40,414 nucleotides of DNA. It comes from Chrysochromulina tobinii. Taxonomy: Eukaryota. Position 1 is the stretch's first letter. The number at the start of each line of letters is the position of its first letter. The notes beneath the pieces were generated by a model. It had not been told where the DNA came from and made no database searches. It saw nothing but the letters and a program-made list of their open reading frames with translations. The translations under genes and the position numbers were made by a program. Of this stretch, positions 245 through 23,950 are shown piece after piece. Location: positions 1-40,414 of the forward strand of contig JWZX01002443.1 in NCBI GenBank assembly GCA_001275005.1, read 5' to 3'.

Positions 245-3200
245 ATGTCCACTCCACCCGACGACCTCTCGCGCTTGTCCTCGCTGGAGGAGGACAGCGT
301 GCGCAACGCGCTACGGGCTAGGTTTGAGAGCAACCATATCTACACCAACATCAATTCGCTGCTCGTTGCGATGAACCCGTACCAGCAACTCACCCTTTAC
401 GGTTCGAATATGCTGGAAGCCTACAACACCTATGGCCAGGCGTCTCCAGGCCCGCACGTCTATGGCGTCGCTTCCGCGACCTACAGAGGGCTCCTGGACG
501 CACGCTCACAGTCAGTCATCATCTCTGGGGAATCAGGCGCAGGCAAGACTGAGACAGCAAAGCGCTTCCTGCAATTTCTCGCATATGCAGCAACTCAAGG
601 ATCGGGCTCGTCAAACGAGGGCCTGGAGGACCGCGTGATCGCGACGTCGCCGCTGCTCGAGGCTGTGGGCAACGCCCAGACCGTCATGAACAACAACTCA
701 TCGCGTTACGGCAAGTACCTCATGCTGCAGTTTGATCTTTCTGGCAAAATTATGGGCGCTTCCATCAAAACGTACTTGCTGGAGAAGACGCGCGTCGTGC
801 GCCAATCCAAGGGCGAACGCAACTATCACGTCTTCTACCTACTGACGCAAGGTGCGGCCTCACTCGCTGGCCTGCTGCGCGGCTGTGGGAGCTGCTACTG
901 CTGCTTCCGGCTGCTTTCGGCGGCTTCGGCGGCTTCGGCGGCTTCGGCGGCTTCGGCGGCTCATGACCAGCCTGCCCTGAGCTGTGTTGCTTGCTTGTGA
1001 CTGGCGAGTCGTTGTCCATGTAGGCGCCCCCGAAAGCCTGTGCACACAGCTCAAGCTCGTTGGCAGCGAATTCAGCTACCTAGCTCAAAACGAGGATCTT
1101 CAGAAGACGGATAAGAAAGCTGGATTGTATGCCCTCGCCCCGCATGCTGCACGTGGCTTATATCCCCCTGCCGCGTCCAGTTGGCACTCAGAGCGCCCGG
1201 CCTCATCAGTGCCCTGCGTTGGAGCGCACGGCTGTTCACCGATTGTGATCTGGGGCGTGGACGCAGTGAAGAAGTCAAGAACGCAATGTCATCCATTGGC
1301 TTCGACCAGACGGAGGCGCGCGCAACCCGCCGCAGCCGCACGCGCGACGCTCGCACACGCGAACCGGCATCTTGCAGGCTCGGAGAACGACATCATCGTG
1401 CCGCACCCTCGCACAGCCTATTTCCAACCCCGTAACGCCGGTGGGCCGAATGTTCGATTCGCGTGGGTCCTTTGCAGCTCCTGTGGGTGTGGACTCTTTG
1501 CGCCGCCATCCTGAAAGTCGGAAACGTCGACTTGGGAAAAGAGGCTGATGGTGAGGCCAAGGTGCGTGCGGGTTAGGCTCGCCAAGTTCGCCTCGTCGAA
1601 TCTTTCTGGTGCTCACGGAAAAGCATCAACCTCTTTCGCGCGCTGAACCCCATCTTTGCAGGTGGTGGACCCAGCTGTTGTCGTCGAGATTGCTGCGATG
1701 CTCCGCATTGACCGCACGAACCTCACAAACGCTCTGACGACAAGGCGCATAAAGGCTGGCAGCGAGTGGGGTGCGACGCGAGGCTTTTCACTCTTCCCTC
1801 AGCGTATCCCTGAGCGCCCTGTCAGCCGAGGTGTCGTTTACACATATTGCTCCGTTGTTTCGATTGGCAGTCACCTCTCCTGTCAATGCCAGCACCGCGG
1901 TCAACGTTCGCGACGGACTGGCGAAGGCCATGTACCAACGTGTCTTTTCATGGATGGTTATGCGTATCAATGCCAACCTCGCGAGTGCGTCACAACGACA
2001 ATCCAACCGTCAGCCACCATCGCTCGCGATCATCATATCGTTCCGCATGCTGACGGCGCGTGCTCCCATATTACCCGTGCCACCTGACTCTGACCATCAT
2101 TGCCAGACATGCAGCTCGACGACGGCCTCACTCGGGCGCGCTTCTTCATTGGCATCCTGGATATTTTTGGCTTCGAAATCTTCGATGAGAATTCCCTTGA
2201 GCAGGCAAGCTGCCCGGCGTCTACATCTGTTGTTGAACGCCTTGCAATCCTGCAGAAGCGTTGCCGGAACTCCCACCCACAAGTCACGCAGCTCATTGCG
2301 CTCTGCACAGTCGCACGCTGACCGCCGCCGCACTCCCCTTGGCTGCCATTGCCTTTGGTCACTGCCATTAGTTGTGCATTAACTTCACGAACGAGAAGCT
2401 TCAGGCCACGTTCAATCAAGCCGTCTTCCACGCCGCCATGGAGGAAAATGCTGAGGAGGACGTCAATGTCGAGGTCGCAGACATGACCGAGATCGATAAT
2501 CAAGAGGTGATCGAGCTCATCGAGGGCAAGCCAGGAGGCATCCTGTCCATCCTGAACGAAGAGTGCGTCGTTCCGAAAGGTTCCGACAGCTCCTTTGCCG
2601 AAAAGCTGTTTGCTCAGTGCAGCGCCAACAAGCGACTCAAGAAGCCTCTCAAGAAAAAAGATGCCTTCCAGATTTCTCACTTCGCTGGGCAAGTTACTTA
2701 TACCGCGACGGGCATCCTTGAGAAGAACAAGGATCCTGTGAGCGAGGATCTGATGGTCATTCTCAAAGGTTCTGACGAGCCTGCCGTTCGCCAGCTCTTC
2801 ACCGATTCGCCTGACGAAGCCCAGCTCATGCTCGACCGCAAGAAGGGCGCGAAGTTTCAGGGCGTCGTCGCAAAGTTCCAGCAGCAACTTGCGGAGCTCC
2901 TTGCGATCGTGGAGTCGAGTGTGACACACTTCGTGCGTTGCATCAAGCCCAACCTTATCAAGGCCCCGGGTGTGTGGGAGGACGAGATCGTCTCCAAGCA
3001 GCTTCGTTGCTCGGGCGTCATGGAGGCGGTGCGCGTCATTGCTGCTGGCTATCCTGATCGCGTGCCGCACTCCGAGATTCTCGGCCGCTTTGCCGCGCTC
3101 ATCGCCGCCGACGAACGTCCGTCTGCCGACAAGGAGGGCGAAAAGAGCGCCGCTTCTAGAACGCTTGAGAAGCTCAAACTGGAACCCAAAGAATTCAGTA

Positions 3201-6200
3201 CGTGGCCTGCGGAGTGGAAGCCAGGGGCTGGAGGAAGTGGGTTCGCACACCGGTGTCGTACCTTGCTGACTTTGCTGCACTCGTGTGAATTGTGCGCCAG
3301 TGCCGGGTAATACCAAGATGTTCCTCAAGGCGGGCGCGCTTTCAAAGTTACGCGTACTGCGAGAGGAACACATCTTCAAGGGAACGAGAGGCATGCAGGT
3401 GCATTGCGCCTTTCGCGCGTGCTTTCGCGCCGCGCGCGCGCGCGCGCAAGAGTATTACCGAGCGAGCTGACGAGATGTGCGCGCCCACGACAATTACGGT
3501 TCGCCGAGCCCCGTCGCACCCTCAAAGGCTGTGGTACGTGGCATGATTGCTCGCAAGGAATATCGCGTGATGTGGGAGGAAGAGCAGGAGCGCAAACGAC
3601 GAGCAGAGGAAGATCGGAAACGCAAAGAGGAGGAGGAGCGGCTGCGCAAAGAGGAGGAGGAGCGCAAGCGAAGGGAGGAGGAGGAGGTGCGCGTCTCGCC
3701 CGCGCATGACTCGTCCCTGACCGCACGCCTGTCACTTTCGTGCGTCGCCGTCTCGCCCCTTTTGTGCGGGTACAGCTGGCTAAGCTGGCTGAGGAGGAAC
3801 GACTGCGCATTCTCGAGGACGAGCGTTTGCGGCGCGAGGCTGAAGCGCGTCAACTGCGCGAGGAGCAGGAGCGGCGACGGCAGGAGGAGGAGATGCATAG
3901 GCTCGCGCAGGAAGCCCTCGAGCGAGAGCGCGAAGAAGAGGAAGCGGCTCGCGCTGCCGATGAGTCCAAGCGACGTTTCCGCGAGCTGCGCGGCCTCGCC
4001 GAGATCGGCGCCCCATCGGATCTGCCTTCCGGCGGCGACGATGCCGCCGGTGCGGCAGGCAGTGCCACAGGCTTCAAGCTCGACATGGGCCGCGTCACGG
4101 GTGCTGCACAGAAGGCGGCGGAGCTCGAGCCCGACATGGCCAAATGGACTCCTCGTGCCAGACCCAAGGATGCGCCCAAACAGTCAGCACGCTACCAGAC
4201 AGACTTCAAAGCTCTGCCAGAGGATGTGCTTGAGTACGCTGTGTATCTCGGTATGGAGCCGACCGAAGACACCGATCTGCTGTGGATCGCCGAAGAGGCA
4301 CTCACCGCTGGCGAGCCGGATGGCTGGACAGAGCAGATGGACCCGAACGGCAATCTCTACTACTACAATGCGACCACAGGCCAGTCCTCTCGCCAGCATC
4401 CTCTTGACGAGTACTATCAGAACCTTTATCTCAAGCTCAAGATGCAGCGCACCATGGAGGTGGCTGGAATGGCCGTACCTGACGAGATCAAGAACCAATC
4501 GACCGCGCAGCTGACGACCGAAGACCTCAAACGGATGCGCGCCACCATGGCGGCGAAAATGGAAGGCGAGGCGTCCGTTCAGCAGCAGTCAGCGCCTGAG
4601 GAGGTTGCTTCTACTACCACGTCTATTTCGCAGGCTTTGTCGATGACGACGCCACGCTCAACGAAGATCATGTCAGAAAAGTTTGGGATCTCGCAGCCGG
4701 ATACCGACGTGCGCGCACTCCTGATCAACCCCGCAAAATGGGCGGAATCGCTTGCATACATCGACACCATCGTTGTGCGCGACACGTCGACGCCTCTGCT
4801 GCCGGCGTTTCACATGTACATGGTGCTCAACGAGACGTATAAGGCATTCGCGTTCTCCGCGGCCAAGCGTGTGGTTGCGCACAACACACACTACGCTGTC
4901 TCGCTCGACCACCTGGAGAACGGGCAAGCCTCGGAGGCCTTCTGCGGCAAGCTGCGCTGCAACTCGAAGGGTACTGAGTTTGCCATTTACGATGACTCGA
5001 ACGATCCGTATGGCCTCAAGACCGGCAAGCCACGACGTGAACTCGGCATCATCTCCTATAAGAAGAAGCTGCTCGGGCCGACCGAGCTGATCGTTGTGAT
5101 GCCCAGGGTGCGAAAGGACGGCGCATGCGCGCAATTCCGGCCATCGCAGCCAGAGGAGTCGATGATACAGCTCTTCAAAGCGGGCCGTGTTGAGCATATG
5201 TTCATCTTGCGTGGGACGGCAAACGTCGCGCCAGGGGGCATGGTCGAGCTCTTTCACAATGGGGCGCTCGGCTCGGGCACGGGCAAGGTCGTCTTCCAGG
5301 CTCACAAGCGGCCCGAGGGCGACTGGAGCGTCAAGTATATGCACCCACTCTCCTGTTTCCAGGCGTTCAATATCTGCATCTCCATCTTTCACAACCCGAC
5401 GACGGCCGGACTCGACGCGCTGCCAGCGGGCGAGCCGCGGCCGATGGTCCCTCTGACCGCCCAAACGACGGCGCCTGCCAGCGGCGCGCCCGGGCAGCCA
5501 GCCAGCGCTAAAAGCGAGCCGAAGAAGGAGGAAAAGGAGGACGCTACACGACCACCTCTCGCTGCAGGGGGCATTGAGCTTTCTGCCGCGAAGCCTGGCG
5601 CCATTATTAACACCGCATCGCTCGAGGGGCTCCCACACCAGGTATACTCGATGACTGTGCAGGGTGCGAAGGTTTACTCGGGACTGTACAATGGCTACAT
5701 TCAGGTTTGGCACATGGATGCGTACGTCAACCTCCCATCGGGTTCGCGGCCTGAGTACCACACTCTGACCGGGCACACGTCGTCTGTCTACGCGCTGGTG
5801 GTCTGCGAGCGCCAACTAATCTCGGCGTCGCATGACAAGCTCGTCAAGATATGGGACCTGAATACGCTCCGCTGCCGTCACACACTAAAGGGGCACAATT
5901 CGCGCGTGCGCGCTCTTGCCGTCTCCGGCAAGCTTCTGTTTTCCGGGTCGAACGACAAATCCATAAAAGTATGGAACCTCGAACTGGTCTCGCAGACACA
6001 GTCGCTGGAGTCTCACTCATCTTGGATCCGCGCGCTCGCCACGGAGAAAGACGTGTTAACATCTGCTTCCAAGGACAATACAGTCAAGGTGTGGGACCTC
6101 AAGAACATGAAATGCATCTTCACCTTTGCGTCAGGCTCCGAAGTGTACTCACTTGCGATGACCAATAATACAGTGTATGGTGGCTGTTTCGACCACAAGA

Positions 6201-6466
6201 TCCGAGTCTGGAACCTGAACACGATGCAAAAGTCGCACATGCTCATAGGCCACGAGGGTGTTGTGCGCTGTCTGACCATTCGCCATTCGACGTTGTACTC
6301 GGGCGGCTCGGATACCAAGCTGAAAGTGTGGGACTTGAAGTCCAACTCGTGCACCACGCTTTTCGGCCACACTTCCTTTGTCCGTGCCATCGCCGTGGAC
6401 GAGGCTGGCCAGACGCTTTACTCGGGAGCCGATGACAAGAAGATCAAAATCTGGCAAGCACGCTGA
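245..6466 (+). CDS. Unconventional myosin (motor, IQ, SAH, CEP164-like WW, Tubby C-terminal domain, WD40), ~1645 aa, 11 exons
   Basis: Manual splice model: 245-851, 1024-1126, 1267-1315, 1478-1561, 1662-1770, 1871-1984, 2107-2204, 2372-3197, 3301-3398, 3528-3686, 3776-6466 (4938 nt, all phases compatible). Motor motifs: GESGAGKT, NNNSSRYGK, TYLLEKTRV, LDIFGFE, EQLCINFTNEKLQ, HFVRCIKPN, QLRCSGVMEAVR, GNTKMFLK. IQ motif MQAVVRGMIARKEY spans intron 9. Confidence 0.92.
916..961 (+). repeat. 9-bp tandem repeat (TTCGGCGGC) x5 inside myosin intron 1
   Basis: Directly visible; it produces the spurious SAASAA/PPKPPK translations in the ORF track. Confidence 0.9.
4211..4430 (+). other. CEP164-N-terminal-like helical + WW module in the myosin tail
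   Basis: DVLEYAVYLGMEPTEDTDLLWIAEEALTAGEPDGWTEQMDPNGNLYYYNATTGQSSRQHPLDEYY follows the CEP164 N-terminal pattern (E..A..IG.DP..E..L.W.A.E...APLP..W.....G..YY.N...G.S..HP.D..Y), recognised from memory. Confidence 0.8.
4800..5392 (+). other. Tubby C-terminal-like domain in the myosin tail
   Basis: AAKR...THYAVSLD...FCGKLRCNSKGTEFAIYD...RRELGIISY...LLGP and the terminal SVKYMHPLSCFQAFNICISIF match Tub hallmarks (GKLRSN..GT.F..YD; Y.YPL...QAF.I..S.F). Confidence 0.85.
5620..6463 (+). other. WD40 beta-propeller (~7 blades) at the myosin C-terminus
   Basis: Repeated GH/SH...V..L......SGS.D..IKVW(D/N) units, e.g. LKGHNSRVRALAVSGKLLFSGSNDKSIKVWN. Confidence 0.93.
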
Positions 6467-8289: not shown

Positions 8290-11200
8290 CTAGACGACAA
8301 CCCGGAGACCTGCGCCGCGCCCGGCGCTCTCGTCAAGCAAAGCATCGCCAGCGCCTCGCTCACCAGCCTCGCACTCATGCCAACCGCTGATTGGTGCGCG
8401 GCACATAGGGCAAGGTGGCATCGAGCTGGTCGAACGTGCCATCCAACCGTCAAGGCACTTTTTGCAAATCGAATGGCGGCACGGGTGCAAGATGAGGCCG
8501 CTAATCTTCAAGAGGCAGACCGGGCACTGTGGCAGTGTCGAGACGGCATCGGTCAGTTCATCAATCGTCGTCACGATTGGACGGAAGTTCTCATCGAGAC
8601 CGACGACCTGCTCCTGCCCGCCCGCAGTCGAAAGCTGGCCGGCGCGCCCGAGTGCCTCAAAGCAGCGCTGGTCGAGGGCATTGAAGCGCAGGTCCACGAA
8701 CGTAACCGACGTCGACTCGCCGAGCGCCGCGGCGAGCGCGAGGACGCCGTCGTAGTCGCGCCCGTAGCTCGTCAGCCCGTTCATTTGCAGCTCGAGGCCC
8801 GCGAGCTTCGTACAGGCGCGCACGCACGTGGCGAGCCCGCGCGCGCTCTGGCTGCCGAGACCGCACGCGACCAGCCGCAGCGACTCCAGCGCAGGCGCCC
8901 CTCCCGTACTGAGTGCCTGCAGCACCACGGCGCCACCCTCGTCCTTGAGCGCGTTCTTCGACAGATCGAGCTGGCGCAGCAGCATGTTGCGCTGGAGCGC
9001 CATCGCCATCGCGCGCACCTCTTCCCGCGTGAGGCTGTTCTGGCCAAGGGCGACCGAGGGCGCGACGCAGCATAGCTCGACGACCGCTCGCATCGCCGTT
9101 GGCCGGTGCCCCCCAATAGCCCCATGCAGATTAAGGCGCCCGTTGACCACTCGGGATCCCTCTAGCATGCCACTTGCGAAATCGGCACCCATCTCCGCGC
9201 CCAGCCGCAGCGTGTTCGCCCACCACACCGGCCAGCGCCACGGCTCGGCGGCGGAGGGCGGCAGCCGGTACGTGCGCGCACACGTGGCGCGCGCAGCAAA
9301 AAACTCCTGGAAGGAGAGATGCGAGAATTGCATCTCAAACGGGTCCGCCTGAAGCAGGCTAACGAGCGGCAGCCGGTCTTGCATGCAGCGCTCGCGCACG
9401 GCGCGTAGCGCGTCTTGCATCGCCTCGGGCAGCTCGGCGACGGCACAGTGCAGCGCGGCGCTGCGGGCACTCGCGCCGTACTGGCGTTCAAAGGCCTCCT
9501 TGCCCCACAGCCCAGTCGACTGCACGTCGTCGCGCGCGATCCACGCCGAGCGGGTGCCGCCGCCGGGCAGATCGATGAGTACATTGAAGGGCAGCTCGGT
9601 TGCATCCTCGTTCAAGATCAGGCCGTACGCGCCCCCATGCGCCCCTCGGAGCACCTGCACGTAGTGACCCACCTGAGCGCCCCCATCGTACGAGGGGCGC
9701 GTGATGGCCGCGAGACGCTCTGGAGACGCGAGCCCCACCGCCGCGGAGAGCAGGTGCTCCTCAGTGATGATACGCCGTTCCGCCGCGTGCGCCTGGAAGG
9801 CGGTGGCCTCGAGGAGCGCCGTCAGCTGCGCGATGGCAGCGGCTGACGCGGCGGCTCCACGTTCCCTGAGGTCGACGCGTGAGAGCATGGCCGACGACGC
9901 AGTCTGATAGAGCTCTGCGATGGTCGCTGGCATCGCCGCCAATGGAGGCATCGCGGTCCTGACGGCGCTGCTTCCGTTCTCGAGAGATGGCGGGGCCTGG
10001 GCCGCATGAGGCGCGTGGCGCGCCTCGTAGGCGGAGATGATCATCGAGAGCATCAGCGGGTTGCCTGTAGTCCGCTCGCCCGTCTCGTCATCAACGAGGA
10101 CGCGCTCGCACACGTACTGCCACAGCTCCTCAGCCCTTGCACGATCGCCGATGCGTTGCTCGATCACCTGCCGCTGCTGGTGATCGGAGAGTGGCCGTAG
10201 CACCATCGCATGGAACCCACGCTCAAAGATGGACCAATTGAAGCCCGCCGGCCGCGACGTGACGAGCATCACGTGTCCCTGTGGCGCGAGCACCTCCGTC
10301 ACGTGCCGCTCGATTTCCCGGCGTGCACGACCGCCCTCGTCGATGCCGTCGAGGATCACCAGGGCGCGGCGCGCCATCAAAGCTTGGCGCAGGAATAGGT
10401 AACGCTCCGAGCCCGCGCCGTGCGTGATGAGCAGGTAGGCGTCGACCCAGTTCCACATGCGGCCAAACACGGAGCGGTGCTCTTCCATCAGCAGTCGCCG
10501 TTGCAGTTGCTGCACCTTGATGGGCACCGGAATGAGCGAATCTGGGCGCTGCAGCATGTGCATGACTAGTTGCGATGTGAGACAGGTCTTGCCTGCGGCT
10601 GGCGGCCCCGTCAGCAGCACGCTCGAGCGCTCGCGCCCAGCGTCGTCTCGGGCTCCAGGCTGGGCGAGCCGCCGTGTGTACGCGCGGTGTAGCCATGCGC
10701 CGAGAGCGGCCACGTCACTCGAGGCAGCCAGGCTGACCACGTCATCCACGCCGTCCTCCTCAACCGCCGCAGCAAGTCCTGGGCCAAGTCCTGGGCCGAG
10801 CTCCCCCGCGTCATTCCTGTTCGGTTCTCCTCTTTCTTGACCATCATTCTTATTGGTGGTGCCTGCCTTGGTGGAGGTGGCACCGGCCGCTCTCGAGCAG
10901 TTGCCGCTGTCGTCCTCTGCGGCGGCTGCGGACTCGCCCAGAAGCTCCCACACGCCTGGCTCGAGATTGGATGGCCACGTGTGCCTCACCCAGCGCCAGC
11001 GCGTGCGCTTCTCGATTGGGTGCACACCGATCTCCTCGAGGCGCCGACGGCACGTTTCGGTGCACGCGTGCGGCGCGGGGAAGGGCTGCGTGCTCGTCGT
11101 TGCGACGTGCGGGCAGTTGGCGAACGCGACCATCACGCGCTCCCTGATCGCAGGTCCGGACCCCGTCGGGGCCGAGGCCGCGGGCGGCGCAGCTGGCACA

Positions 11201-14200
11201 CTTCCTTTCAAGGTGGGTGACGAACCACCGAGAATGGCACACGCAATCGGCACGCATTGCGCAAAGACGTCCAACCGCCGCCCACTGAGTGCGTCGACGA
11301 TGGACGAGTGTTGCGTCCGCAACGAGTGTTCCCAGCGCTGCCGCAAGGTCTCAAACGTAGCGCAGCCCATCTCCCGTGGTGTAGCGTTGAACGGGGTCAA
11401 GGAGAGGCTCACCTCGCGACCGGAGCGGCACAGCTGCAGCTTGTGCACCCAATTGAATGTGCACAGCTCGGCCTCTCCGGGCGGCTGCAAGACGTCGGCA
11501 TCCTTCCACTCCCCACCGTGGTACACCACGAGCGCCGCGCCCGTCTCGTACCGTCGCAAGCCGATCGCGCCACTGTCAGCCAGCTCAGCCGCGCATTCGG
11601 CCTCCAACGCGCACAGCGGGCTGGCCAAGGCAGCTTCGAGATAGGCGGCGCCACTCGACAGAGATGGGGCTACACTTGTGCTCGAGGTGTCGAACACCGC
11701 GAGGATCGAACGCATCTGATCACGGTACGTCCCCTCGATAAGCTGTTTGCCACAAGCCGTGCGCATGCGCTGCGGGAGCTTCATGAACTCGGATCGCGCC
11801 TCTTTGGTACGATGGCGCGCTTGGTAGACCTGCTCAAGTGCGCGATCAAGCAGCTCGCGCAGCCATGCCGAGCTCACCTTGTGCTGCTGCGAGCGCATCT
11901 GCTCGACTATTCGCTCGACACTCGCATCTAGCTCACGATGGTCTATCGTAGATTCCGTGCCGGTGAGCACGCCAGCGGGAGGCCCAGGAAGCAAGGAAGT
12001 CAGCCCACGCATCGTTCGCAGTGCCGCCCCGTCACCTTTCGCGTGTTTGATGACTGCCGCAAGACGGCTGGTCGGCGCAGGAGGTTGCCCTTTTGAAACC
12101 GTGCCCGGCGCCCAGTTACCCAAACCCGCAGTACGGTCGGCCGGCATCGGCCGCCACGGAAGCACGCGCTGGCTGCAGTTGTCAAAGCTGCAGCGTGGAC
12201 CCGCGCCCGTCGCCACCAGCAACTCGGAGGTGGGCGCGTCGAGCAGAGAGCGCTCTGGACGACTCTCCAAGTCCAAGTCGACCCCGTCCAAGTGCGTCAC
12301 TGCGAACTGCGTCTGACCTTCACCGCCTCGAAGTCGGCCGTCCGCATCGAGCAGCATCAAAAGGGGCTGGCCGGAAGCGAGCTGAAGCCCGTGGGCAGGC
12401 CCAGCCACCCCCTCGGCGCGTGTGATGAGGCGTGGCGGTGGGCGAGCGAGGCTCGCACGAATGGACACCGCGCACCGCCGTGCTATCCACCACGCGAGCC
12501 GCTTCTGTGCCACGGAGAGGTTGACGAAGTGCATCGAGGCTAGAGTGCGCTCGAGTAAGGGCATCAGGAAGTGGCACGAGTGCGTGTCCGCTTCGACGAC
12601 CGTTGCCTTGGGGACGCCACGCGACGCCGCACGTTCAGATTCGACACAGCGAGAGACGAGAGCGCTGGCTTGCTTCACAATAGTGCTCGCCAGCCGCAGA
12701 GCGAGCTGCGCGTGCGCTGGCCAGGAGGCCGGTGGCTCGCGTGTGCCCATCTGAGACAGCTCAGGCGGAAGCCCCGATACTGGAGCCAGAAACGCATCCG
12801 CAATGACAAGGGCCTCTCGCAAGCGTTCGTGCACCTCTTCGCGCTCGGCCACGCGTCTCAGTGAAGGGGATAGCTCAGTGTCGGCGGCCAGCGTCTGGCA
12901 GAGGTCACTTACGTGTGTGCACCGAACCAACGCAGCGTGCCACCGCGCCGCTGCTTGCATCGAGAGCCCGAACACAAGCGAGAGGCTTGCTGGGTCGAGA
13001 GCCCTCGCTTCTTCCAGCGTCAGCGGCAGAGGCAGCGTCTCCACGAAGATGCTCGAGATGAGCGCCGCAGCATCGTCGAATGGATTGGCTGCTCGCTCCG
13101 CCGGCGCTTCCAGAAGCCACAGGGATCCGTGTACATCCAAGATCACGTTGGCTGCGTGCAGGTTGGCGTGCTGGTGCGTCTGCAGCGGCCTCCACTTGGA
13201 CAGCCATGGCGGCGCCCACGGGCGCTGCGTGGAATGGTCACCGAGGGCGTGCGCTTTGAAACCGTGCGCACTCGTGGATGAGGGCGTGGACGATGAGTGG
13301 AAGGGAGATGACAGCGCTGGCTGTGATCCACGCTGCGCTGGGCCTCCGCTGCCTCCGCGCTGCGTAGCCACAGCCGCGAGGGATCCGTTGCCTGAAGCCG
13401 CCACAGGGCGCGAGCTGGCGCGACCAATATCCCGCGGCGTCAGCCCACCCGGCACGCCAGCCGCAGATTGACGCCCACCCCTCGGCGTTGCTTGGGCGCT
13501 CTTGTCGCATCCGTGGCCCCGTTCGGCCCCTCGAGGCGTTGCACAGGCAGCCTTGGGGACTTCGAGCTGCGTGGGAAAGGGCTCACCATCCGGACTGCTG
13601 CTGTGGCGCAGCGCGTGGCGGAGCGCTAGGTCAAAGTCCCACAGCAGCGAGCGCAGCAGCGTCATCGCGACCACCGCTTCGCAACCAGTGGCGGCCTGGA
13701 AGCGCTCCACTTTGTCCCGCTGCACGCTATCCAGGTCGCTCATCGGCACGTGGCTCATCGGGGCGTAGATCGATCGCATCTCCTTCTCCCACTTCTGCAA
13801 CACTGATGGCGATGTCGGCGACGGTGGTGGCGGCAACAGCAGCGATGGATGGGCAACCGGCGAAGGGGGCATCTCTGCGCTGCCATTGGGGGCGCCACCA
13901 GCGTCAGGCCTATTGGATTGCAAGCAGCTATGGAGAAATCTCATGAGCTCGACCAGTGGAGAGACGTCGAGGCTTTCCAGCTCCTCCAAGACCCAAGAGC
14001 TTGGCTGGTTCGAGCTACCCCGAGATCCGCTACGAGGAGTGGCGGCGCCACGGGGTGTCTTCGACTCGCCGCCGACGCAAGCGGTGCTGATCGCTGGAGA
14101 CGACGGCATGAAGGGCACTGCCGGCGCTGCGGCTTGCGAACTGCTGGCGCTGGCACTTGTGTTCGCCCTGGAGACATTACACACCGCAGCCAATACGAGA

Positions 14201-15936
14201 CTGTTCACGAAGCGTTGCTGACGCCCCATCCCGCCTGTCGGCTCCTCGGCGGGCAGGATGCCATCCGTGGTCAGCTCTCGCAAGCAGCCGAGCAGAGTAG
14301 CGGATGGCGTGTAGCTAGCAGCACGAGCAAGGTCTTCGTGCACTGGAGCGCGCGGCACAAACGCGTCGGCACACAGCGAGGCCACCGAAGCGAGCGATCG
14401 GCGCACCCAGCCGTGCCGAGCATCGTCCGCGGGTCGCTCGTCACGCGTTGCTGTGCGCATTGCGAGGGTGCACAGCGGTCCGCCCGGCCCCCATAGGTTG
14501 CGCACTACGGAGGTGGCGTCGTCGGCAGGCGCAGAGGCGCCACTGCTGAGAAGCTTGCTTAGATGATCGTGGAATGTGTAGAAGAGGTGGTTACAGAAGA
14601 GGGGCCCACTGCCGCCATCGGCATTGAAGTTGGGAAGCACCCAGCACGCGCCCGCCAGCTCGAACACGATAGCTCCCAGCGCCCCTCCCACGGGATCTCC
14701 TCCCAAGGCGGCCCCTCCCACTGAGTCCGTCTCGTCTTTGCCAGCTGCGAGCGCACCCGCAGCACTCAGCGCGACACCACGCGCGTCGACGTAGAGCGGC
14801 CCGCGCAGCAACTGCAGCGTGTGCTCCGACCCCAACATCTGAGAATGTGACTGAGTGCGCTCGGCCTCCCGGGCGGCCTCAGCTGCAGCCTCGATCTTAG
14901 TGATCGTCGGATCTTGCCGCCGGCCGTGCGCGTCGTAACCCTCTGTGCGAAGCAGGAGCGTCCCGCTCGAGAGGACACCACGCTCGCTCAGCGGTGCGAT
15001 CACGACGCGGGAGCAGCCTGCAAATAGCGACTCGATGAGCCGCTCGTGTGCACGCCGCAGCTCAAGCCCGGCATGCAACACGAGCGTCACCTGCGGCGGG
15101 GCAGCGGCGGTAGACGCAAGGGCAGCAGCGTCGACTGCAACGTTGCCAGCCGCTGCAGGAGCCACGCCCTCTCTCGTGCTCGCGTCGGCACCTGCGCCGA
15201 GCGCGACAGCAGCTGCTGACCTATCGGCGGGCGGCTCGGGATTGGATGCGATGGCAGTCGCGGGAAGCGGCAGCGTGGGTGGCGGTGGATCGACGGCGAT
15301 GCATAGCGGCGCGCTCATCAGCCCTGAAGCATGCGCATCGAATGTGGGCACATGCAGCGGCTCCACTGGCGCCAGGTCCGAATGCGGTGGGGTCGGACAC
15401 TGAACACGCAAAGCAAGGGGCGCCATTGCCGTTCGCTCTTCTGTCGCAACGACCGAGGCTGCGGACGCATCCTTCTCTGCAAGGGGGAGAACGAGAGCGC
15501 CATCGCCATCGCTGTTACCGCCAACTAACTCGCGAGCTGCTGCCGGATCAGCGACGGAGAGCGAGATGGCCAGCAGAAAATCGGAATCGCTCTCCGAATC
15601 TGCTGGCAGCACAGGAGCATCAGCAGCTCGTTTGGTGCTCAGGGGCTCCTCCTCTGAATCAGACAAAGTGGCCGGGCTTTCTGTGCTGCGATGGGGTGCT
15701 GGCCTGGCCTCTTTGATGGGCGACGGTGACGGCGCCCTCTGGCGCCGAGTGGGTGGCGCTGTTGCTGCTGCTGCCGTGGCTGTGGCTGTGGCTGTGGGCA
15801 TCCGCCGTTGCCCCGCCGCCGCTGGGCAGGCAGTGCGCCTCGAGTTTGGCCGGCTACCACCAGCTGGATCTGCATTGGACGATGGTGGTATTCGCAGCGG
15901 CGGCGTGGACGATGGTGATCGCCGGGACCTCGACAT
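8290..15936 (-). CDS. NLR-like STAND protein: UIM-like, degenerate kinase-like (split by a UBA-like insert), NACHT, LRR, C3HC4 RING (2548 aa)
   Basis: Uninterrupted ORF. Walker A LLTGPPAAGKT (~10586-10609), Walker B LVILDGIDE (~10336-10363), LVTSRP, GNPLMLSMI, winged-helix FSHLSFQEFFAA (~9293-9330), RI-type LRRs (LRQLDLSKNAL, LAGLELQMNGL, VTFVDLRFNAL), RING CPVC...PCRHSICKKC...CPMCR (~8396-8530). Start codon is uncertain because the N-terminus is low complexity. Confidence 0.88.
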   Translation of the reverse strand: MSRSRRSPSSTPPLRIPPSSNADPAGGSRPNSRRTACPAAAGQRRMPTATATATAAAATAPPTRRQRAPSPSPIKEARPAPHRSTESPATLSDSEEEPLSTKRAADAPVLPADSESDSDFLLAISLSVADPAAARELVGGNSDGDGALVLPLAEKDASAASVVATEERTAMAPLALRVQCPTPPHSDLAPVEPLHVPTFDAHASGLMSAPLCIAVDPPPPTLPLPATAIASNPEPPADRSAAAVALGAGADASTREGVAPAAAGNVAVDAAALASTAAAPPQVTLVLHAGLELRRAHERLIESLFAGCSRVVIAPLSERGVLSSGTLLLRTEGYDAHGRRQDPTITKIEAAAEAAREAERTQSHSQMLGSEHTLQLLRGPLYVDARGVALSAAGALAAGKDETDSVGGAALGGDPVGGALGAIVFELAGACWVLPNFNADGGSGPLFCNHLFYTFHDHLSKLLSSGASAPADDATSVVRNLWGPGGPLCTLAMRTATRDERPADDARHGWVRRSLASVASLCADAFVPRAPVHEDLARAASYTPSATLLGCLRELTTDGILPAEEPTGGMGRQQRFVNSLVLAAVCNVSRANTSASASSSQAAAPAVPFMPSSPAISTACVGGESKTPRGAATPRSGSRGSSNQPSSWVLEELESLDVSPLVELMRFLHSCLQSNRPDAGGAPNGSAEMPPSPVAHPSLLLPPPPSPTSPSVLQKWEKEMRSIYAPMSHVPMSDLDSVQRDKVERFQAATGCEAVVAMTLLRSLLWDFDLALRHALRHSSSPDGEPFPTQLEVPKAACATPRGAERGHGCDKSAQATPRGGRQSAAGVPGGLTPRDIGRASSRPVAASGNGSLAAVATQRGGSGGPAQRGSQPALSSPFHSSSTPSSTSAHGFKAHALGDHSTQRPWAPPWLSKWRPLQTHQHANLHAANVILDVHGSLWLLEAPAERAANPFDDAAALISSIFVETLPLPLTLEEARALDPASLSLVFGLSMQAAARWHAALVRCTHVSDLCQTLAADTELSPSLRRVAEREEVHERLREALVIADAFLAPVSGLPPELSQMGTREPPASWPAHAQLALRLASTIVKQASALVSRCVESERAASRGVPKATVVEADTHSCHFLMPLLERTLASMHFVNLSVAQKRLAWWIARRCAVSIRASLARPPPRLITRAEGVAGPAHGLQLASGQPLLMLLDADGRLRGGEGQTQFAVTHLDGVDLDLESRPERSLLDAPTSELLVATGAGPRCSFDNCSQRVLPWRPMPADRTAGLGNWAPGTVSKGQPPAPTSRLAAVIKHAKGDGAALRTMRGLTSLLPGPPAGVLTGTESTIDHRELDASVERIVEQMRSQQHKVSSAWLRELLDRALEQVYQARHRTKEARSEFMKLPQRMRTACGKQLIEGTYRDQMRSILAVFDTSSTSVAPSLSSGAAYLEAALASPLCALEAECAAELADSGAIGLRRYETGAALVVYHGGEWKDADVLQPPGEAELCTFNWVHKLQLCRSGREVSLSLTPFNATPREMGCATFETLRQRWEHSLRTQHSSIVDALSGRRLDVFAQCVPIACAILGGSSPTLKGSVPAAPPAASAPTGSGPAIRERVMVAFANCPHVATTSTQPFPAPHACTETCRRRLEEIGVHPIEKRTRWRWVRHTWPSNLEPGVWELLGESAAAAEDDSGNCSRAAGATSTKAGTTNKNDGQERGEPNRNDAGELGPGLGPGLAAAVEEDGVDDVVSLAASSDVAALGAWLHRAYTRRLAQPGARDDAGRERSSVLLTGPPAAGKTCLTSQLVMHMLQRPDSLIPVPIKVQQLQRRLLMEEHRSVFGRMWNWVDAYLLITHGAGSERYLFLRQALMARRALVILDGIDEGGRARREIERHVTEVLAPQGHVMLVTSRPAGFNWSIFERGFHAMVLRPLSDHQQRQVIEQRIGDRARAEELWQYVCERVLVDDETGERTTGNPLMLSMIISAYEARHAPHAAQAPPSLENGSSAVRTAMPPLAAMPATIAELYQTASSAMLSRVDLRERGAAASAAAIAQLTALLEATAFQAHAAERRIITEEHLLSAAVGLASPERLAAITRPSYDGGAQVGHYVQVLRGAHGGAYGLILNEDATELPFNVLIDLPGGGTRSAWIARDDVQSTGLWGKEAFERQYGASARSAALHCAVAELPEAMQDALRAVRERCMQDRLPLVSLLQADPFEMQFSHLSFQEFFAARATCARTYRLPPSAAEPWRWPVWWANTLRLGAEMGADFASGMLEGSRVVNGRLNLHGAIGGHRPTAMRAVVELCCVAPSVALGQNSLTREEVRAMAMALQRNMLLRQLDLSKNALKDEGGAVVLQALSTGGAPALESLRLVACGLGSQSARGLATCVRACTKLAGLELQMNGLTSYGRDYDGVLALAAALGESTSVTFVDLRFNALDQRCFEALGRAGQLSTAGGQEQVVGLDENFRPIVTTIDELTDAVSTLPQCPVCLLKISGLILHPCRHSICKKCLDGWMARSTSSMPPCPMCRAPISGWHECEAGERGAGDALLDESAGRGAGLRVVV

Positions 15937-16142
15937 CGGTTTCCGTCGTGGGCCAGGCTCGGGCGTCCAGCTCCTTGATGCCCTCTACTAGTAGTCGCGC
16001 AGGCTCCTCTCTTTTCCGCGAGAGTGTGAATCAAGGAGTGAACATGTGAATGGAAACTCGCCCGCAGCTGTCGTTAGGATAACACGTTCATGAATCCTTG
16101 GCATCCTCTGACGAACCGCCCACCACGGCGCTCACGGCAAAA

Positions 16143-17449
16143 ATGGCGTCACGGACACGGCCCATACGCTTCCGAACAACGTTCCGCAACACCATCTACG
16201 ACCTCTTCAAGTCGAAAGGATGGACCGAGACCGAGAGCGACACTGACTGGGATGTGGCATGGGTCGACAAGGACTGGATCCGAGAAAACTTTTTGCAGCA
16301 GACGCTTGCCGACCACCAGCGCATCAATCACTTCCCAAACCATTATGAACTCACACGCAAGGACAACCTCATCAAGAATCTCAAACGCACGCAGCGCGCA
16401 CTCCAGCGCGAGGGTCTGGTCGACGAGGCGGCCCGGTATGATTTCTTCCCCGGCACGTGGTTACTGCCGGCCGACTATGGCCTCTTTGTCGAAGAGTTCA
16501 AGAACTACCCTTCCGGCACGATCTGGATCATGAAGCCCACCGGCAGTGCGCAGGGCAAGGGCATCTTCCTCTTCACCCGGCTGCAGCAGATCAATGACTG
16601 GAAGAAGGACAGCGGCTGGAAGACCGACGCCGCTCAGGCCGCATCGTACGTTGTGCAGCGATACATTGAGAATCCGCAGCTCATCGGCGGCAAAAAGTTC
16701 GATCTGCGGCTCTACGTGCTCGTCACGTCTTACAACCCGCTCACGGTCTACATCTACCGCTCAGGCTTCGCGCGCTTCTCATCGTACCGTTACAATACGA
16801 CTAAAGCCAACCTGAGCGACACGTATGTTCACCTGACAAACGTGGCGGTACAGAAAACGGGCCCTGGCTTCGATGCGGGTGCGGGGTCCAAGTGGCCACT
16901 GCGCAACTATCGCCTGTTCCTCGTAGGCAAGTACGGGCATCAGGCGACAGACCGCATGTTCCTCGACGTTGAAGAACTCTGTGTGAACACGCTACTCTCT
17001 GTGCAGAAGGTGATGATCTCGGACGTCATCTGGCTGATTGCCTCCCTCATCTGTCTGATTGCCTCCCTCATCAGGTGATGATCTCGGACAAGCACTGCTT
17101 CGAGATGTACGGCTACGACATCCTGATCGACGAGACGCTCAAGCCGTGGCTGATTGAGGTGAACGCGTCGCCTTCCATCACCGCGGACACCATCCAGGAC
17201 TACGACCTCAAGTTTGGGCTGCTCGAGGACGTGTACAGCGTCGTCGATGTGGAGCAAAAGCTCGGCCACGGTGTGGATGGGCGGCCGCTCGAGCCAACCG
17301 TCGGTGGCTTCGACCTGATCTACCACGGCGAGAAGGTTCGGCCCGATCGCCAGGCGACGTACACGTCTAAGCTAGGTTGCTTTGACCCGGCCGATCGGCA
17401 ACGAGGCTTGAGAAAGCTGTGGGCCAGTGTTGGTGCGACCGGCAAGTGA
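16143..17449 (+). CDS. TTLL9: Tubulin polyglutamylase, TTLL9-like (413 aa; exons 16143-17009 and 17075-17449)
   Basis: TTL motifs INHFPNHYELTRKDNLIKNLKR, WIMKP...AQGKGIFLF, YVVQRYIENP.LIGGKKFDLRLYVLVTSY, HLTNVAVQK, CFEMYGYDILID..LKPWLIEVNASPS, VGGFDLI. Removing the GT-AG intron 17010-17074 restores VQK|VMISDKHCFE. Confidence 0.9.
17008..17089 (+). mobile_element. Introner-like 65-nt intron (17010-17074) flanked by a 17-bp direct duplication
   Basis: AGGTGATGATCTCGGAC occurs at 17008-17024 and 17073-17089. The interior is two copies of a 21-bp unit TCATCTG(G/T)CTGATTGCCTCCC followed by TCATCAG. Confidence 0.7.
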
Positions 17450-18407: not shown

Positions 18408-19688
18408 CTACATGTACGGCGGACTCCCGGATCGAGCTCTTTCCGGTTTGAAGCCCGCCTCGATCATTTTGAGCATTGGACGCTGATCGATCTGCATCAA
18501 TTGGAGCTGTTTTTGGCGATCCTCTAGGCCTGCGCGGATGTCATTCTCGTCGAGCTTGCCTGATGCGTCTGAGTCCAGGGCCTCAAACAGCTTGACGAAC
18601 ATGTCAACGTCCTCCTGCTTGACAGCGTCGAGCATCGTGAGCATACCTATCACGAACTCGAACTGGTTCACGCCGTCTCCGTCCTTGTCGAGGCTCATCA
18701 TCAGGTCCACGTCGAGCGAGCCCTTAACCATGTCCATCTTGCGGAGCGCCTCCTGTCGGGCCTTGCTGAGCTCGCTCACGTCGCGTACGCTGGCGGCCAG
18801 AATCGACACCGAGATGGCGATGTGGAAGAAGGCCCACATGCGGCCCCCGTCACTTGCGATCTTCACATCGCCTAAGCCCACAGTCGTCATAGTCACGCAA
18901 CAGTGGTAAATGGCGCTCCCAAAGTCCCAGCCTTCAATGGCGCAAAAGACCTGGGCGAACAAGCACTGGATGGCCACGATACAGATGAACGGCGCAATAA
19001 GGTTCTTAGAATAGTAGTAGAGTGGCTTCCGTGGCACTTTGAAGTCCTCGGTGCCGTCGCCGTCGATGTCGACACCCGATTGCGGGAACCAGCGCTCAAG
19101 AGCCGCACGAGACGAAATGTACATCGGCTTGATGCCCTTGGCAACCAGTGCAGAGAGCTTGGCAAACACGACGATGATACCGAAGAAGATGTACACGAGA
19201 GTGAACATGCGGCTCCCCGGGACGCTTGGGTCCGGATATAGGTCGCCGTAGCCCACTGTGGCTGCGGTCACCATCAAAAAGTAGAGGCTCTGCCAAATAT
19301 TCCAGCCCTGCAGACTCATGTAGAAGGCAGATCCCGTGCCAAAGTAGATGCAGCACCACAGTAAGCAAGCGGCGATTTCTTTCCCCAAGGCATGCATCGT
19401 TTGTCGTGGCGGCCCTAGGGTATTAAGCTCTAGGCTTGGCTGTGGTGGCACAGGCGCCACGAGCGCTGCTGGCGGCATCACAGGACGCGGCGCCCGTGCT
19501 CGTGCGGCCGAGGTCATAGCCACTGGCGATGAAGCTTGGACTTCATGCTCATCTTGTGGCGGTTCCGGAGGCCATTCGTGCTGTTTGTCCAGCCATAGCA
19601 CTTGCACTCTTTGTGCCGCAGGTGCCTTCTCAGGGGCGCTGCGCGTAGAGCGAGGCGCCGCCATCGCCAGAGACGGTGCGTCGACCAT
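18408..19688 (-). CDS. Two-pore-domain K+ channel (TPK/K2P-like) with C-terminal EF hands
   Basis: Pore loops SLYFLMVTAATVGYGDLYP and AIYHCCVTMTTVGLGDV, four hydrophobic helices, EF-like loops LDKDGDGVNQFEF and LDSDASGKLDENDI. Confidence 0.9.
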   Translation of the reverse strand: MVDAPSLAMAAPRSTRSAPEKAPAAQRVQVLWLDKQHEWPPEPPQDEHEVQASSPVAMTSAARARAPRPVMPPAALVAPVPPQPSLELNTLGPPRQTMHALGKEIAACLLWCCIYFGTGSAFYMSLQGWNIWQSLYFLMVTAATVGYGDLYPDPSVPGSRMFTLVYIFFGIIVVFAKLSALVAKGIKPMYISSRAALERWFPQSGVDIDGDGTEDFKVPRKPLYYYSKNLIAPFICIVAIQCLFAQVFCAIEGWDFGSAIYHCCVTMTTVGLGDVKIASDGGRMWAFFHIAISVSILAASVRDVSELSKARQEALRKMDMVKGSLDVDLMMSLDKDGDGVNQFEFVIGMLTMLDAVKQEDVDMFVKLFEALDSDASGKLDENDIRAGLEDRQKQLQLMQIDQRPMLKMIEAGFKPERARSGSPPYM

Positions 19689-19878: not shown

Positions 19879-20626
19879 AGGACGCTGAGAGTGTAGCAGA
19901 GAGAGGCCGGACGGCGACGGCGCGGGCGGCGGCAGCAGCGAGGCCGGACGAGTGCTCGTCGCGGCATCGCGAAGAGGAGGTGCAAGCGCAGCCATGGAGC
20001 GCAGCAGGCAGAAGAACAGGGGTCAGCGGCAGGCGATGGCTAGGTTTGACCGACGACTGGCGGCGGATGACGCGAGCGTGAGCTGAGCTGAACGGTGCGA
20101 GGGCGAGGGTTCCGAGTCTGTGTTGCTCACGCGACTGCGGGACGGGCCCTCTCCCTTGTGCTGGTCATCTCGGCGAGCGTGACGCTGCGCCGACCGGCCT
20201 CGAGTTCCCCGGTCGAGGCGCCTATGTCTCCCTCTTTCTCTCCCCCAATCCCCCTCTCTCTATCTATTCTCTTCGATCTCTAGCTGTACTCTGAGGGCAC
20301 GCAGGCTAGCACCCTGTGGCGTGTCTCCTCCTGGTCTCCTTCCCGTTCGTGCTCCTTCCGTTGTGTCCTCACCATCTCCGTCGACTCTCACCCCCACTGC
20401 TAGCCTCGAGAGCACATTCGATAGGCTTCCGTTAGGTTGTCTGTTGTTTATGCAGTAACTGAACTTAGCTAAAAAAGGAGGGGGTGGCTGCAGAGTTCCA
20501 AGAAGCCTGGAGTGCAGCCCGCGGCGTGCATGCATATTTGGCGTTCTTTGTTTGTAATTATCCACAAGAATCTCGCCTGAAGAATCTCTCGCTGGGGCTC
20601 CGGAGACTGCGACCGACGACGGGATA

Positions 20627-23186: not shown

Positions 23187-23714
23187 CTAGCCCGTGACGG
23201 AATCATTTTCAAACCTCTCATTCTGCGGCGGTAGCACCTTTCCAGCGACCGGCAGCTCCACGATGCCAGTGACTGTGCCACACTCAGCTGGGAGCTTTTC
23301 CAAGTCCTTTGTGAGCGCCTTGCAAAGAGCTTTCTCCGAAAACATCTTGGTGGTGAATTGGCCTTCGGAGATTCGGCTCACGAGCAAAACGGTGCACCCA
23401 TCGTCGTCGCCAATTGTAAAGCGCACGCCGCCATCCTGACCACCCTTTTTGTCGGGGTTCATGGACCACTCGCTCGTCGGCTTGCGGCGAAAGGTGAGAG
23501 ACACGCCGTACTGCGGCTTCTCGAGTGGAAGCACCAGCATCGGCTGCATCGGCAGCACAGCGGCAAACGAGCGCTTCATCAGCCATTCTTCCAACTTTGC
23601 GGGCGCCCCATTCGCGAGCCGGACCTGAAGGAGCACGTCGAGTGCGGCAGGCCTTGACAGCGAAAAGGCGCCGGCGAGCGGCACGAGGAACGCAAGCACG
23701 ATACGAACGGCCAT
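23187..23714 (-). CDS. Small protein of unknown function, probably plastid-targeted
   Basis: ATG at 23714 gives MAVRIVLAFLVPLAGA-FSLSR (signal peptide followed by Phe, as in secondary-plastid bipartite leaders), then a globular-looking region (FRRKPT...KGGQDGGVRF...RISEGQ...FSEK). Confidence 0.7.
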   Translation of the reverse strand: MAVRIVLAFLVPLAGAFSLSRPAALDVLLQVRLANGAPAKLEEWLMKRSFAAVLPMQPMLVLPLEKPQYGVSLTFRRKPTSEWSMNPDKKGGQDGGVRFTIGDDDGCTVLLVSRISEGQFTTKMFSEKALCKALTKDLEKLPAECGTVTGIVELPVAGKVLPPQNERFENDSVTG

Positions 23715-23950
23715 TCCGAGCGTTCGTCGAGACCGTGAATAGACGTGAGCGTCCACAGCAAGGAGTTTTGACAGTCAACATTTGCCCACAAAAGGTGCAA
23801 GCCATTTCTGTTCACACCACGCGTCCGACTCGTTTCCCACGAGAATTGGGCCACCGGTCCGGTCGGCATACATGCCGCCGGCCAGCACCTCGCCCAGGGC
23901 CAAAGTGCCACCGCTCTCTCCCGGCAAGGCTGCCTTTGAAAAGAGCGCTG

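What the first reader, a model, noticed from the sequence alone, without database searches (positions are those of the whole stretch)
245..6466. Myosin fused to a CEP164-like WW module, a Tubby domain and WD40: candidate ciliary-base cargo motor
Seen: an intact motor and a last exon (3776-6466) that carries WW, Tubby and WD40 in one frame. Known: the CEP164 N-terminal/WW module acts at centriole distal appendages and binds TTBK2; Tubby/TULP domains bind phosphoinositides and act as ciliary membrane-cargo adaptors. Inference: an actin motor with two ciliary-gate modules could deliver membrane cargo to the flagellar or haptonema base. I do not recall this tail in the standard myosin classes, but cannot confirm novelty.
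Basis: partly seen in the sequence, partly recalled or inferred. Interest (0 to 1): 0.85.

Follow-up and report, generated by a model that had tools for sequence, protein, structure and literature searches.

The report
Haptophyte myosin with Tubby-WD40 tail
This is a real, spliced and transcribed algal myosin gene, conserved across haptophytes, whose tail joins a CEP164-like WW module, a Tubby domain and a WD40 propeller; it likely moves or tethers membranes on actin, but it lacks key residues that its human look-alikes need for their cilium jobs.

Summary
Observation confirmed. Eleven exons give a 1645-aa protein without internal stops; all 10 introns appear as RNA joints, and one 4504-nt RNA contig runs from the motor to the end of the tail. 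Order: motor, one IQ, a charged single helix, CEP164-NTD-like WW module, Tubby barrel, 7-blade WD40. Orthologues and paralogues occur in Chrysochromulina, Prymnesium, Phaeocystis and Pavlovales; every named carrier is a haptophyte. The family includes an Emiliania protein listed under 'myosin XXXII' in 2014, and that paper already names Tub and WW as myosin tail domains, so this is a new variant, not a new kind. I found no paper on the four-domain tail. The ciliary reading is weak: two TTBK2-contact residues (F77, W84) are replaced, the TULP3 cargo lysine K389 is absent, an 18-residue Tubby hairpin is deleted, and the WW module recurs in many unrelated proteins. The main PI(4,5)P2 pocket is kept, the second site eroded. 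Best reading (0.5): a low-affinity phosphoinositide-membrane cargo or tethering motor, probably in secretion or uptake.

The parts
245..6466 (+). Whole gene, 11 exons, 1645-aa unconventional myosin
245..3398 (+). Myosin motor domain, exons 1-9 (about aa 1-690), no N-terminal extension; P-loop at 527-550; switch 1, switch 2, relay and SH1 motifs intact
   Evidence: Pfam Myosin_head on exons 1 and 8; motif scan
3393..3554 (+). Single degenerate IQ motif (aa 695-705), split by intron 9
3570..3988 (+). E/R/K-rich helix (aa 711-820), predicted single alpha-helix lever extension, split by intron 10
   Evidence: 94 attractive against 19 repulsive i+3/i+4 pairs, 0 of 5000 shuffles as high; no Pro or Gly
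4205..4453 (+). CEP164-NTD-like module (WW inserted in a three-helix bundle, about aa 893-975); A948 and R955 stand at CEP164 F77 and W84
4667..5401 (+). Tubby-fold barrel; K1141, R1143, R1169 match the canonical lipid pocket; second basic patch reduced to 2 of 5; 18-residue hairpin deleted near 5207; no K389 equivalent
5402..5602 (+). Low-complexity linker, predicted disordered
   Evidence: pLDDT under 50
5603..6463 (+). Seven-blade WD40 propeller
1316..1477 (+). Intron 3, GC-AG
2205..2371 (+). Intron 7, GC-AG
3399..3527 (+). Intron 9, GT-AG, holds an in-frame stop if retained
3687..3775 (+). Intron 10, GT-AG, joins the helix exon to the tail exon in frame

Best explanation
This is a transcribed haptophyte-specific myosin that likely works as a membrane-cargo or membrane-tethering motor on actin. 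Shown: an intact motor, one IQ, and three tail domains in one transcript, conserved across haptophytes. Inferred: the charged helix is a single alpha-helix that lengthens the lever by up to about 16 nm and leaves the motor single-headed until clustered; the Tubby barrel binds a phosphoinositide membrane weakly (first pocket kept, second eroded), so binding would need several motors or a protein co-receptor; the WW module, with a non-canonical groove, and the WD40 propeller would pick partners or cluster motors. The most likely setting is plasma-membrane-directed traffic common to all haptophytes, such as actin-dependent scale-vesicle secretion, or uptake. The domains are predicted to hang as independent beads on flexible linkers.
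For: Motor motifs intact. Tail domains are more conserved than the motor between this gene and Prymnesium parvum: motor 69%, WW module 87%, Tubby 81%, WD40 89%. TULP3 K268 and R270, needed for PI(4,5)P2 binding, align to K1141 and R1143; the arginine at R1169 is invariant in 29 of 29 rows; its role as a lipid contact is recalled. Charge periodicity without a hydrophobic heptad in aa 711-750. Scale secretion in two haptophytes is blocked by latrunculin B (PMC5684398, passages). Whole-tail model: domains fold singly, pTM 0.44.
Against: No experiment on any member. The second PI(4,5)P2 site keeps 2 of 5 basic residues, and single alanine changes there remove strong membrane binding in tubby (PMC9451155; alignment), so lipid binding may be lost. 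The B paralogues have S at the R270 position in 6 of 6 rows, so the pocket is not essential across the WD40 group. The second half of the helix (aa 751-820) has 45-50% hydrophobic or alanine residues in two heptad registers, so a short coiled coil is not excluded. The link to scale secretion is circumstantial only.
Confidence: 0.5

Rival explanations
1. Actin organiser in the manner of alveolate MyoF: the WD40 propeller would oligomerise the motors and bind microtubules or a cortical scaffold, so the protein slides or anchors actin; the trimmed Tubby barrel is a protein-binding platform, not a lipid sensor.
For: Toxoplasma MyoF uses its WD40 tail to oligomerise and to bind microtubules (PMC12621969, abstract). 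WD40 is the most conserved part (89%). The lipid pocket is degraded in the B paralogues and the second site in all WD40-type rows.
Against: MyoF is a dimer without its tail, whereas this neck has one IQ and a single-helix signature. No evidence that the two propellers are related beyond being WD40: look-alike search gave only generic WD40 clusters. The canonical pocket is kept in 9 of 9 A-type rows.
Confidence: 0.2
2. One reading: a motor that delivers membrane cargo to the base of the flagella or haptonema, docking through the CEP164-like module and handing cargo over through Tubby.
For: Both folds are real and their best-studied relatives act at the ciliary base. All named carriers of the WD40 type are haptophytes whose groups bear flagella (flagellation recalled). 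None of the 30 Emiliania CCMP1516 myosins whose starts I saw in the 2014 supplement looked by eye like the WD40 type, and that strain is recalled to be non-motile; this is weak, as only about the first 400 residues were shown and the paper counts 53 genes.
Against: F77 to A and W84 to R: alanine at either site strongly reduces TTBK2 binding; R stands at W84 in 18 of 18 A/B-type rows. No K389 equivalent in 15 of 15 such rows; K389 is required for ciliary cargo traffic by TULP3. In CEP164 the module is the docking site for a kinase, not the part shown to target the centriole (mutants still localise). The module is widespread in unrelated proteins. TULP3 needs an N-terminal IFT-A-binding helix, which has no place in this architecture.
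Confidence: 0.15
3. A slow, load-bearing tether at membrane contact sites or the cortex, holding organelles (Golgi, peripheral ER, plastids) in place instead of moving vesicles.
For: Mouse tubby concentrates at ER-plasma membrane junctions. A single head with a single-helix lever suits tension holding (general myosin knowledge).
Against: That junction targeting depends on the second basic site, which is eroded here. Nothing here measures duty ratio.
Confidence: 0.13
4. The fusion is a gene-model artefact: a myosin gene beside a separate WW-Tubby-WD40 gene.
For: Some database proteins hold only the tail (for example P0001, 908 aa); low-depth contigs retain introns 9 or 10.
Against: One RNA contig spans exon 8 to beyond the stop with no mismatch; intron 10 is joined in 6 of 6 RNA runs laid; 7 of 28 hits carry motor, WW, Tub and WD40 in one protein.
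Confidence: 0.01

Closest known systems
Emiliania huxleyi 'myosin XXXII' of Sebe-Pedros et al. 2014 (PMC3942036)
   Same: EMIHUDRAFT_110275, listed in the block labelled XXXII, has motor plus Tub and groups with the C paralogues; all module-bearing haptophyte myosins lie on one side of a 98-99% SH-aLRT branch against the outgroups used.
   Different: C-type proteins end in an intact, canonical Tubby domain with W84 and K389 equivalents and have no WD40; the window's type has the hairpin deletion and a WD40 propeller. The passages I saw give no description or function for XXXII.
'Myosin XXI' of Sebe-Pedros et al. 2014 (stramenopile plus haptophyte)
   Same: The text lists IQ, WW, PX and Tub among its tail domains.
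   Different: Its one Emiliania member in the tree, Ehux_461567, does not resemble this motor by eye; WD40 has 0 occurrences in the main text. Which XXI protein carries Tub could not be seen.
Alveolate myosin F (TgMyoF, PfMyoF; class XXII or XXVII)
   Same: Myosin with a C-terminal WD40 propeller; linked to endomembrane traffic.
   Different: MyoF is dimeric and has no Tubby or WW module in the abstract seen; its WD40 is called exclusive to that class, which this protein contradicts. An independent gain is inferred from WD40 being confined to one haptophyte subclade, not from a tree that holds MyoF.
CEP164 N-terminal domain (PDB 7O06, 7O3B, 7NWJ)
   Same: WW inserted in a helical bundle; structural residues A56, P59, W62, H86, P87 and contact Y73 kept.
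   Different: F75 to Y, F77 to A, W84 to R, R93 to Q; residues before 23 not aligned; the module is internal to a motor protein and also common in unrelated proteins.
Tubby, TULP1, TULP3 (PDB 1I7E, 3C5N, 8FH3)
   Same: Barrel-with-central-helix fold, Z 25.4; canonical lipid residues kept.
   Different: 18-residue hairpin deleted, no K389, second basic patch 2 of 5, domain followed by WD40 instead of ending the protein.
Unclassified Emiliania plus Prymnesium orphan myosins of Kollmar and Muehlhausen 2017 (PMC5583752)
   Same: The paper notes orphans restricted to these two haptophytes and expects more classes there; these proteins may be among them.
   Different: Tubby, WW domain and WD40 do not occur in its main text; its domain figures were not available to me.

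Membership tests
Myosin superfamily | Motor domain with P-loop, switch 1, switch 2, relay and SH1 motifs | tested here: met
Myosin superfamily | Actin-activated ATPase and movement | not testable with these tools
   needs biochemistry
Myosin XXXII (Sebe-Pedros 2014) | Motor groups with an Emiliania sequence of that block against non-haptophyte myosins | tested here: met
   SH-aLRT 98-99 on quick trees; 6 to 7 outgroup rows only (class II, XI, one oomycete, one mite); block limits read from PDF text
Myosin XXXII (Sebe-Pedros 2014) | Exclusion of other classes (I, IV, XXI, XXIII, XXVII, XXX) from the clade | not tested
   no reference members of these classes could be fetched
Myosin XXI (Sebe-Pedros 2014) | Motor groups with stramenopile XXI members | tested here: inconclusive
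   the only oomycete row is of unknown class and a long branch; it falls outside the haptophyte group
Myosin XXI (Sebe-Pedros 2014) | Tail may hold IQ, WW, Tub | tested here: met
   a shared domain list does not show membership
Myosin F (class XXII/XXVII) | C-terminal WD40 propeller | tested here: met
Myosin F (class XXII/XXVII) | Dimer-forming neck without the tail | tested here: inconclusive
   one IQ and single-helix charge pattern, but a short coiled coil in aa 751-820 is not excluded
Myosin F (class XXII/XXVII) | Motor in the alveolate MyoF clade | not tested
   no MyoF motor among the rows; none among the 120 best motor hits listed
CEP164 | WW inserted in a helical bundle | tested here: met
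CEP164 | TTBK2-binding aromatic grooves Y73/W84 and F75/F77 | tested here: not met
   W84 to R, F77 to A
CEP164 | Module at the N-terminus of a centriolar coiled-coil protein (architecture recalled) | tested here: not met
   module at aa 893-975 behind a motor
Tubby/TULP ciliary adaptors | Tubby fold | tested here: met
Tubby/TULP ciliary adaptors | Canonical PI(4,5)P2 residues K268, R270 (TULP3 numbering) | tested here: met
Tubby/TULP ciliary adaptors | Second basic site, tubby 301-305 | tested here: not met
   2 of 5 basic
Tubby/TULP ciliary adaptors | Cargo residue K389 | tested here: not met
   absent in 15 of 15 WD40-type rows, present in 6 of 6 C-type rows; position placed by counting along the tubby alignment
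Tubby/TULP ciliary adaptors | N-terminal IFT-A-binding helix | tested here: inconclusive
   the match to full-length TULP3 covered residues 214-368 only, but the query was the Tubby region alone
Tubby/TULP ciliary adaptors | Phosphoinositide binding and ciliary localisation | not testable with these tools
   needs experiments

The most novel reading that the evidence does not exclude
Haptophytes built their own family of Tubby-tailed myosins, and this WD40-bearing branch, as old as the split between Pavlovales and the rest, is the actin motor that serves the flagellar or haptonemal base: a rewired WW groove and a hairpin-less Tubby barrel would recognise haptophyte-specific partners and bring membrane or captured food vesicles to or from that site, an actin-based counterpart of the TULP3 and IFT-A route.
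Probability: 0.15. Interest if true: 0.85.

Novelty: new variant of a known kind. Interest (0 to 1): 0.52.

Why it matters
It defines an uncharacterised, ancient branch of haptophyte myosins with at least five tail types built around one shared WW module, in algae of large ecological weight whose actin motors have no assigned jobs in the papers I found. It gives named candidates (Prymnesium parvum KAL1495652.1 and KAL1521949.1) for the motor behind actin-dependent scale secretion or prey uptake. It shows that a WD40 tail is not exclusive to alveolate MyoF, that the CEP164 N-terminal module is a mobile domain and not a centriole marker, and that a Tubby barrel tolerates loss of a conserved hairpin, giving natural paralogue pairs (canonical C type against trimmed A and B types) for testing what each Tubby surface does.

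Tried and rejected
First hand-made gene model had wrong ends for introns 6 and 8 and gave 7 stops; corrected from RNA joints. No whole genome is held, so I could not check whether this organism has its own CEP164, TTBK or TULP. Literature searches without a paper on this architecture: 0 papers each; 7 papers, none on haptophyte myosin classes by title; 17 papers, 12 listed, mostly giant viruses; 3 papers; only PMC3942036 relevant. Motif search of the 2014 supplement's FASTA found nothing, but long lines are cut there, so it shows nothing. Atlas look-alikes: generic Tub clusters at 0.76 and generic WD40 clusters, no family assignment. A search with the canonical C-type Tubby domain gave 18 of 24 hits with a myosin head, every named one a haptophyte, the other 6 animal TULP4; no stramenopile myosin-Tub was found, which is weak as the search needs shared words. 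Considered that the trimmed barrel had become LURP-one or scramblase-like: rejected, tubby Z 25.4 against At5g01750 Z 12.7. Considered fixed packing of Tubby on WD40 in place of the lost hairpin: no support, pTM 0.44, and the E paralogues appear by eye to lack the hairpin without having WD40. The careful tree did not finish; all trees are quick trees. Earlier scan findings: none. No complex prediction was run, as no partner is known.
Full report
Observation. The window holds, on the + strand, a spliced gene from 245 to 6466. A first model by eye had two wrong intron ends. RNA contigs from public runs fixed all ten introns: nine were joints in 4 of 4 runs laid and intron 8 in 3 of 4. Introns 3 and 7 are GC-AG. 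In a second laying, one 4504-nt RNA contig covered 2370-3197, 3301-3396, 3526-3684 and 3774-6700 without a mismatch, so motor and tail are one transcript; the 2 runs of unrecorded kind showed none of these joints and read through introns. Low-depth intron-retaining contigs also exist.

Anatomy. Exons 1 and 8 match Myosin_head, and P-loop, switch 1, switch 2, relay and SH1 motifs are intact. One degenerate IQ follows. Residues 711-820 are 67% E, R or K, without Pro or Gly, with 94 attractive against 19 repulsive i+3/i+4 pairs; 0 of 5000 shuffles reached that balance. I infer a single alpha-helix; the second half is ambiguous and could form a short coiled coil. The last exon matches WW, Tub and WD40 above Pfam's cut-offs. 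The WW lies in a module whose best PDB match is the CEP164 N-terminal domain, E 1.7e-15. A model of module plus Tubby (mean pLDDT 78) matched tubby at Z 25.4 and CEP164-NTD at Z 11.2 (Foldseek agrees). A model of the whole tail folded each domain, with a seven-blade propeller, but pTM was 0.44 and the linkers were disordered.

Distribution. A search with module plus Tubby among longer proteins gave 28 hits, 7 of which carry motor, WW, Tub and WD40 together. Named cluster members are Chrysochromulina parva (EP00900_P004077; all four tail parts 100% identical to the window, with extra inserts in the motor that the RNA joints do not support), Prymnesium parvum KAL1495652.1, fragments from Pavlovales sp. 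CCMP2436 and Phaeocystis antarctica. A second WD40-bearing paralogue (B) occurs in C. tobinii KOO23561.1 and P. parvum KAL1521949.1. A third type (C) ends in a canonical Tubby domain without WD40 and occurs in C. parva, Haptolina, Tisochrysis, Phaeocystis, P. polylepis and Emiliania. Further relatives carry the same module with PDZ domains, with a degenerate Tubby-like end (E), or with another canonical Tubby (D). Every named carrier is a haptophyte; most records are unnamed. Between the window and P. parvum the tail domains are better conserved (81-89%) than the motor (69%).

Phylogeny. Quick trees of motor domains (the careful search did not finish) put the 11 WD40-type rows together (SH-aLRT 95), sister to type E (98-99), and all module-bearing rows on one side of a 98-99 branch against class II, class XI, an oomycete and a mite myosin. 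One search left out the mite row and one D row and re-cut three motors. Outgroups are few, so this is not a full class assignment. EMIHUDRAFT_110275 groups with type C. In the supplementary tree of Sebe-Pedros et al. 2014 it lies in the Emiliania block labelled myosin XXXII, and other members of that block resemble by eye the E and PDZ types. The window's protein is therefore most likely a branch within that group.

Testing the ciliary idea. In CEP164, Y73 and W84 form one proline groove and F75 and F77 the other; Y73A, F77A and W84A strongly reduce TTBK2 binding (PMC8752127). The window keeps Y73 and the structural residues but has A at F77 and R at W84. R stands at W84 in 18 of 18 A/B-type rows, W in 7 of 7 C rows and N in 5 of 5 PDZ rows; 3 proteins were dropped because the pattern did not find their module. 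The module is not a centriole marker: 95 of the 150 best representative hits hold it, 74 of these show no match to motor, Tubby, WD40 or the PDZ tail, and 43 of those are 400 aa or longer, 40 with several copies (multi-copy proteins are favoured by summed scores). Of 37 long hits scanned, companions included IQ repeats, EF-hands, Sel1, LsmAD and PLAT. In the Tubby domain, TULP3 K268 and R270, needed for PI(4,5)P2 binding (bioRxiv 10.1101/2021.05.25.445488), are kept. The second site, tubby 301-305, keeps 2 of 5 basic residues, and single alanine changes there remove strong membrane binding in tubby (PMC9451155). An 18-column segment is missing in 15 of 15 A/B rows and present in 6 of 6 C rows, and the K389 cargo lysine, required for ciliary traffic by TULP3, is likewise present only in C; 3 proteins were dropped by the pattern. 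B rows have S at the R270 position in 6 of 6. One observation leans the other way: none of 30 Emiliania CCMP1516 myosin starts seen in the 2014 supplement resembled the WD40 type by eye, and that strain is recalled as non-motile; the set is incomplete and truncated, so this is only a lead.

Mechanism. Shown: one transcript, intact motor motifs, three folded tail domains under strong conservation. Inferred: a single-headed motor with an extended lever, weak phosphoinositide binding that needs clustering or a co-receptor, and partner selection by the altered WW groove and the propeller. The likeliest setting is membrane traffic near the cell surface; scale secretion in two haptophytes needs actin (PMC5684398), but nothing ties this gene to it directly. 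I give this 0.5, a MyoF-like actin organiser 0.2, the ciliary-base motor 0.15, a static tether 0.13.

Comparison and novelty. Sebe-Pedros et al. 2014 already name IQ, WW, PX and Tub as tail domains of their class XXI, so myosin plus Tub is in print; WD40 does not occur in that main text. Kollmar and Muehlhausen 2017 leave Emiliania plus Prymnesium orphans unclassified. A 2025 MyoF preprint calls the WD40 tail exclusive to that class. Six searches found no paper on the four-domain tail, but the library lacks most subscription papers, and I could not see Fig. 1 or supplementary file 1 of the 2014 paper or the domain figures of the 2017 paper, any of which may show it. What I saw of each paper: PMC3942036, passages, supplement file 2 part 1 and search passages; PMC5583752, passages and one spreadsheet search; PMC8752127, passages and section 11; the TULP3 preprint, PMC9451155 and PMC5684398, passages; PMC12621969, abstract and outline; other MyoF papers, search listing only. 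Recalled without a call: the lipid role of tubby R363, the overall architecture of CEP164, helix rise per residue, and motility of haptophyte strains.

Verdict. Real gene, real and conserved architecture, a new variant within a barely described haptophyte myosin family. The ciliary-gate function is possible but lacks the residues that would support it. Interest 0.52.

Noticed in passing
window 23498-34393 (+): Single 3631-codon open frame (first Met at codon 152) with no Pfam hit at 1e-3, built by eye of about 7-8 long tandem repeats of roughly 400 aa with EF-hand-like helical motifs.
   Followed up: partly
window 8290-15984 (-): 2564-codon open frame with a C-terminal RING finger and, by eye, a P-loop NTPase segment and leucine-rich repeats: looks like an NLR-type protein.
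   Followed up: partly
window 16083-17078 (+), 18408-19688 (-), 20558-21691 (+): Neighbouring frames match tubulin-tyrosine ligase family, a two-pore ion channel and AAA_28. No functional link to the myosin is claimed.
   Followed up: no
protein P0020 (unnamed JGI record): A protein kinase fused to the same hairpin-less Tubby domain, without motor: the trimmed barrel has been reused, or the record is chimeric.
   Followed up: no
proteins P0264, P0473, P0478: A further long-branch myosin type with the WW module and a canonical Tubby domain (183 bits); P0478 has a weak N-terminal EF-hand hit.
   Followed up: partly
proteins P0133, P0134, P0139, P0151 and others: The CEP164-NTD-like module occurs in tandem arrays, often with many IQ motifs or EF-hands; no Pfam family covering the whole module was among the hits shown.
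   Followed up: partly
window 245-3398 against P0119: The public C. parva model (1716 aa) has an extra N-terminus and inserts at several introns that RNA joints do not support.
   Followed up: yes
window 168: The first-exon contig begins at position 168 in 4 of 4 RNA runs; contigs cannot show a transcription start, so this is only a hint.
   Followed up: no
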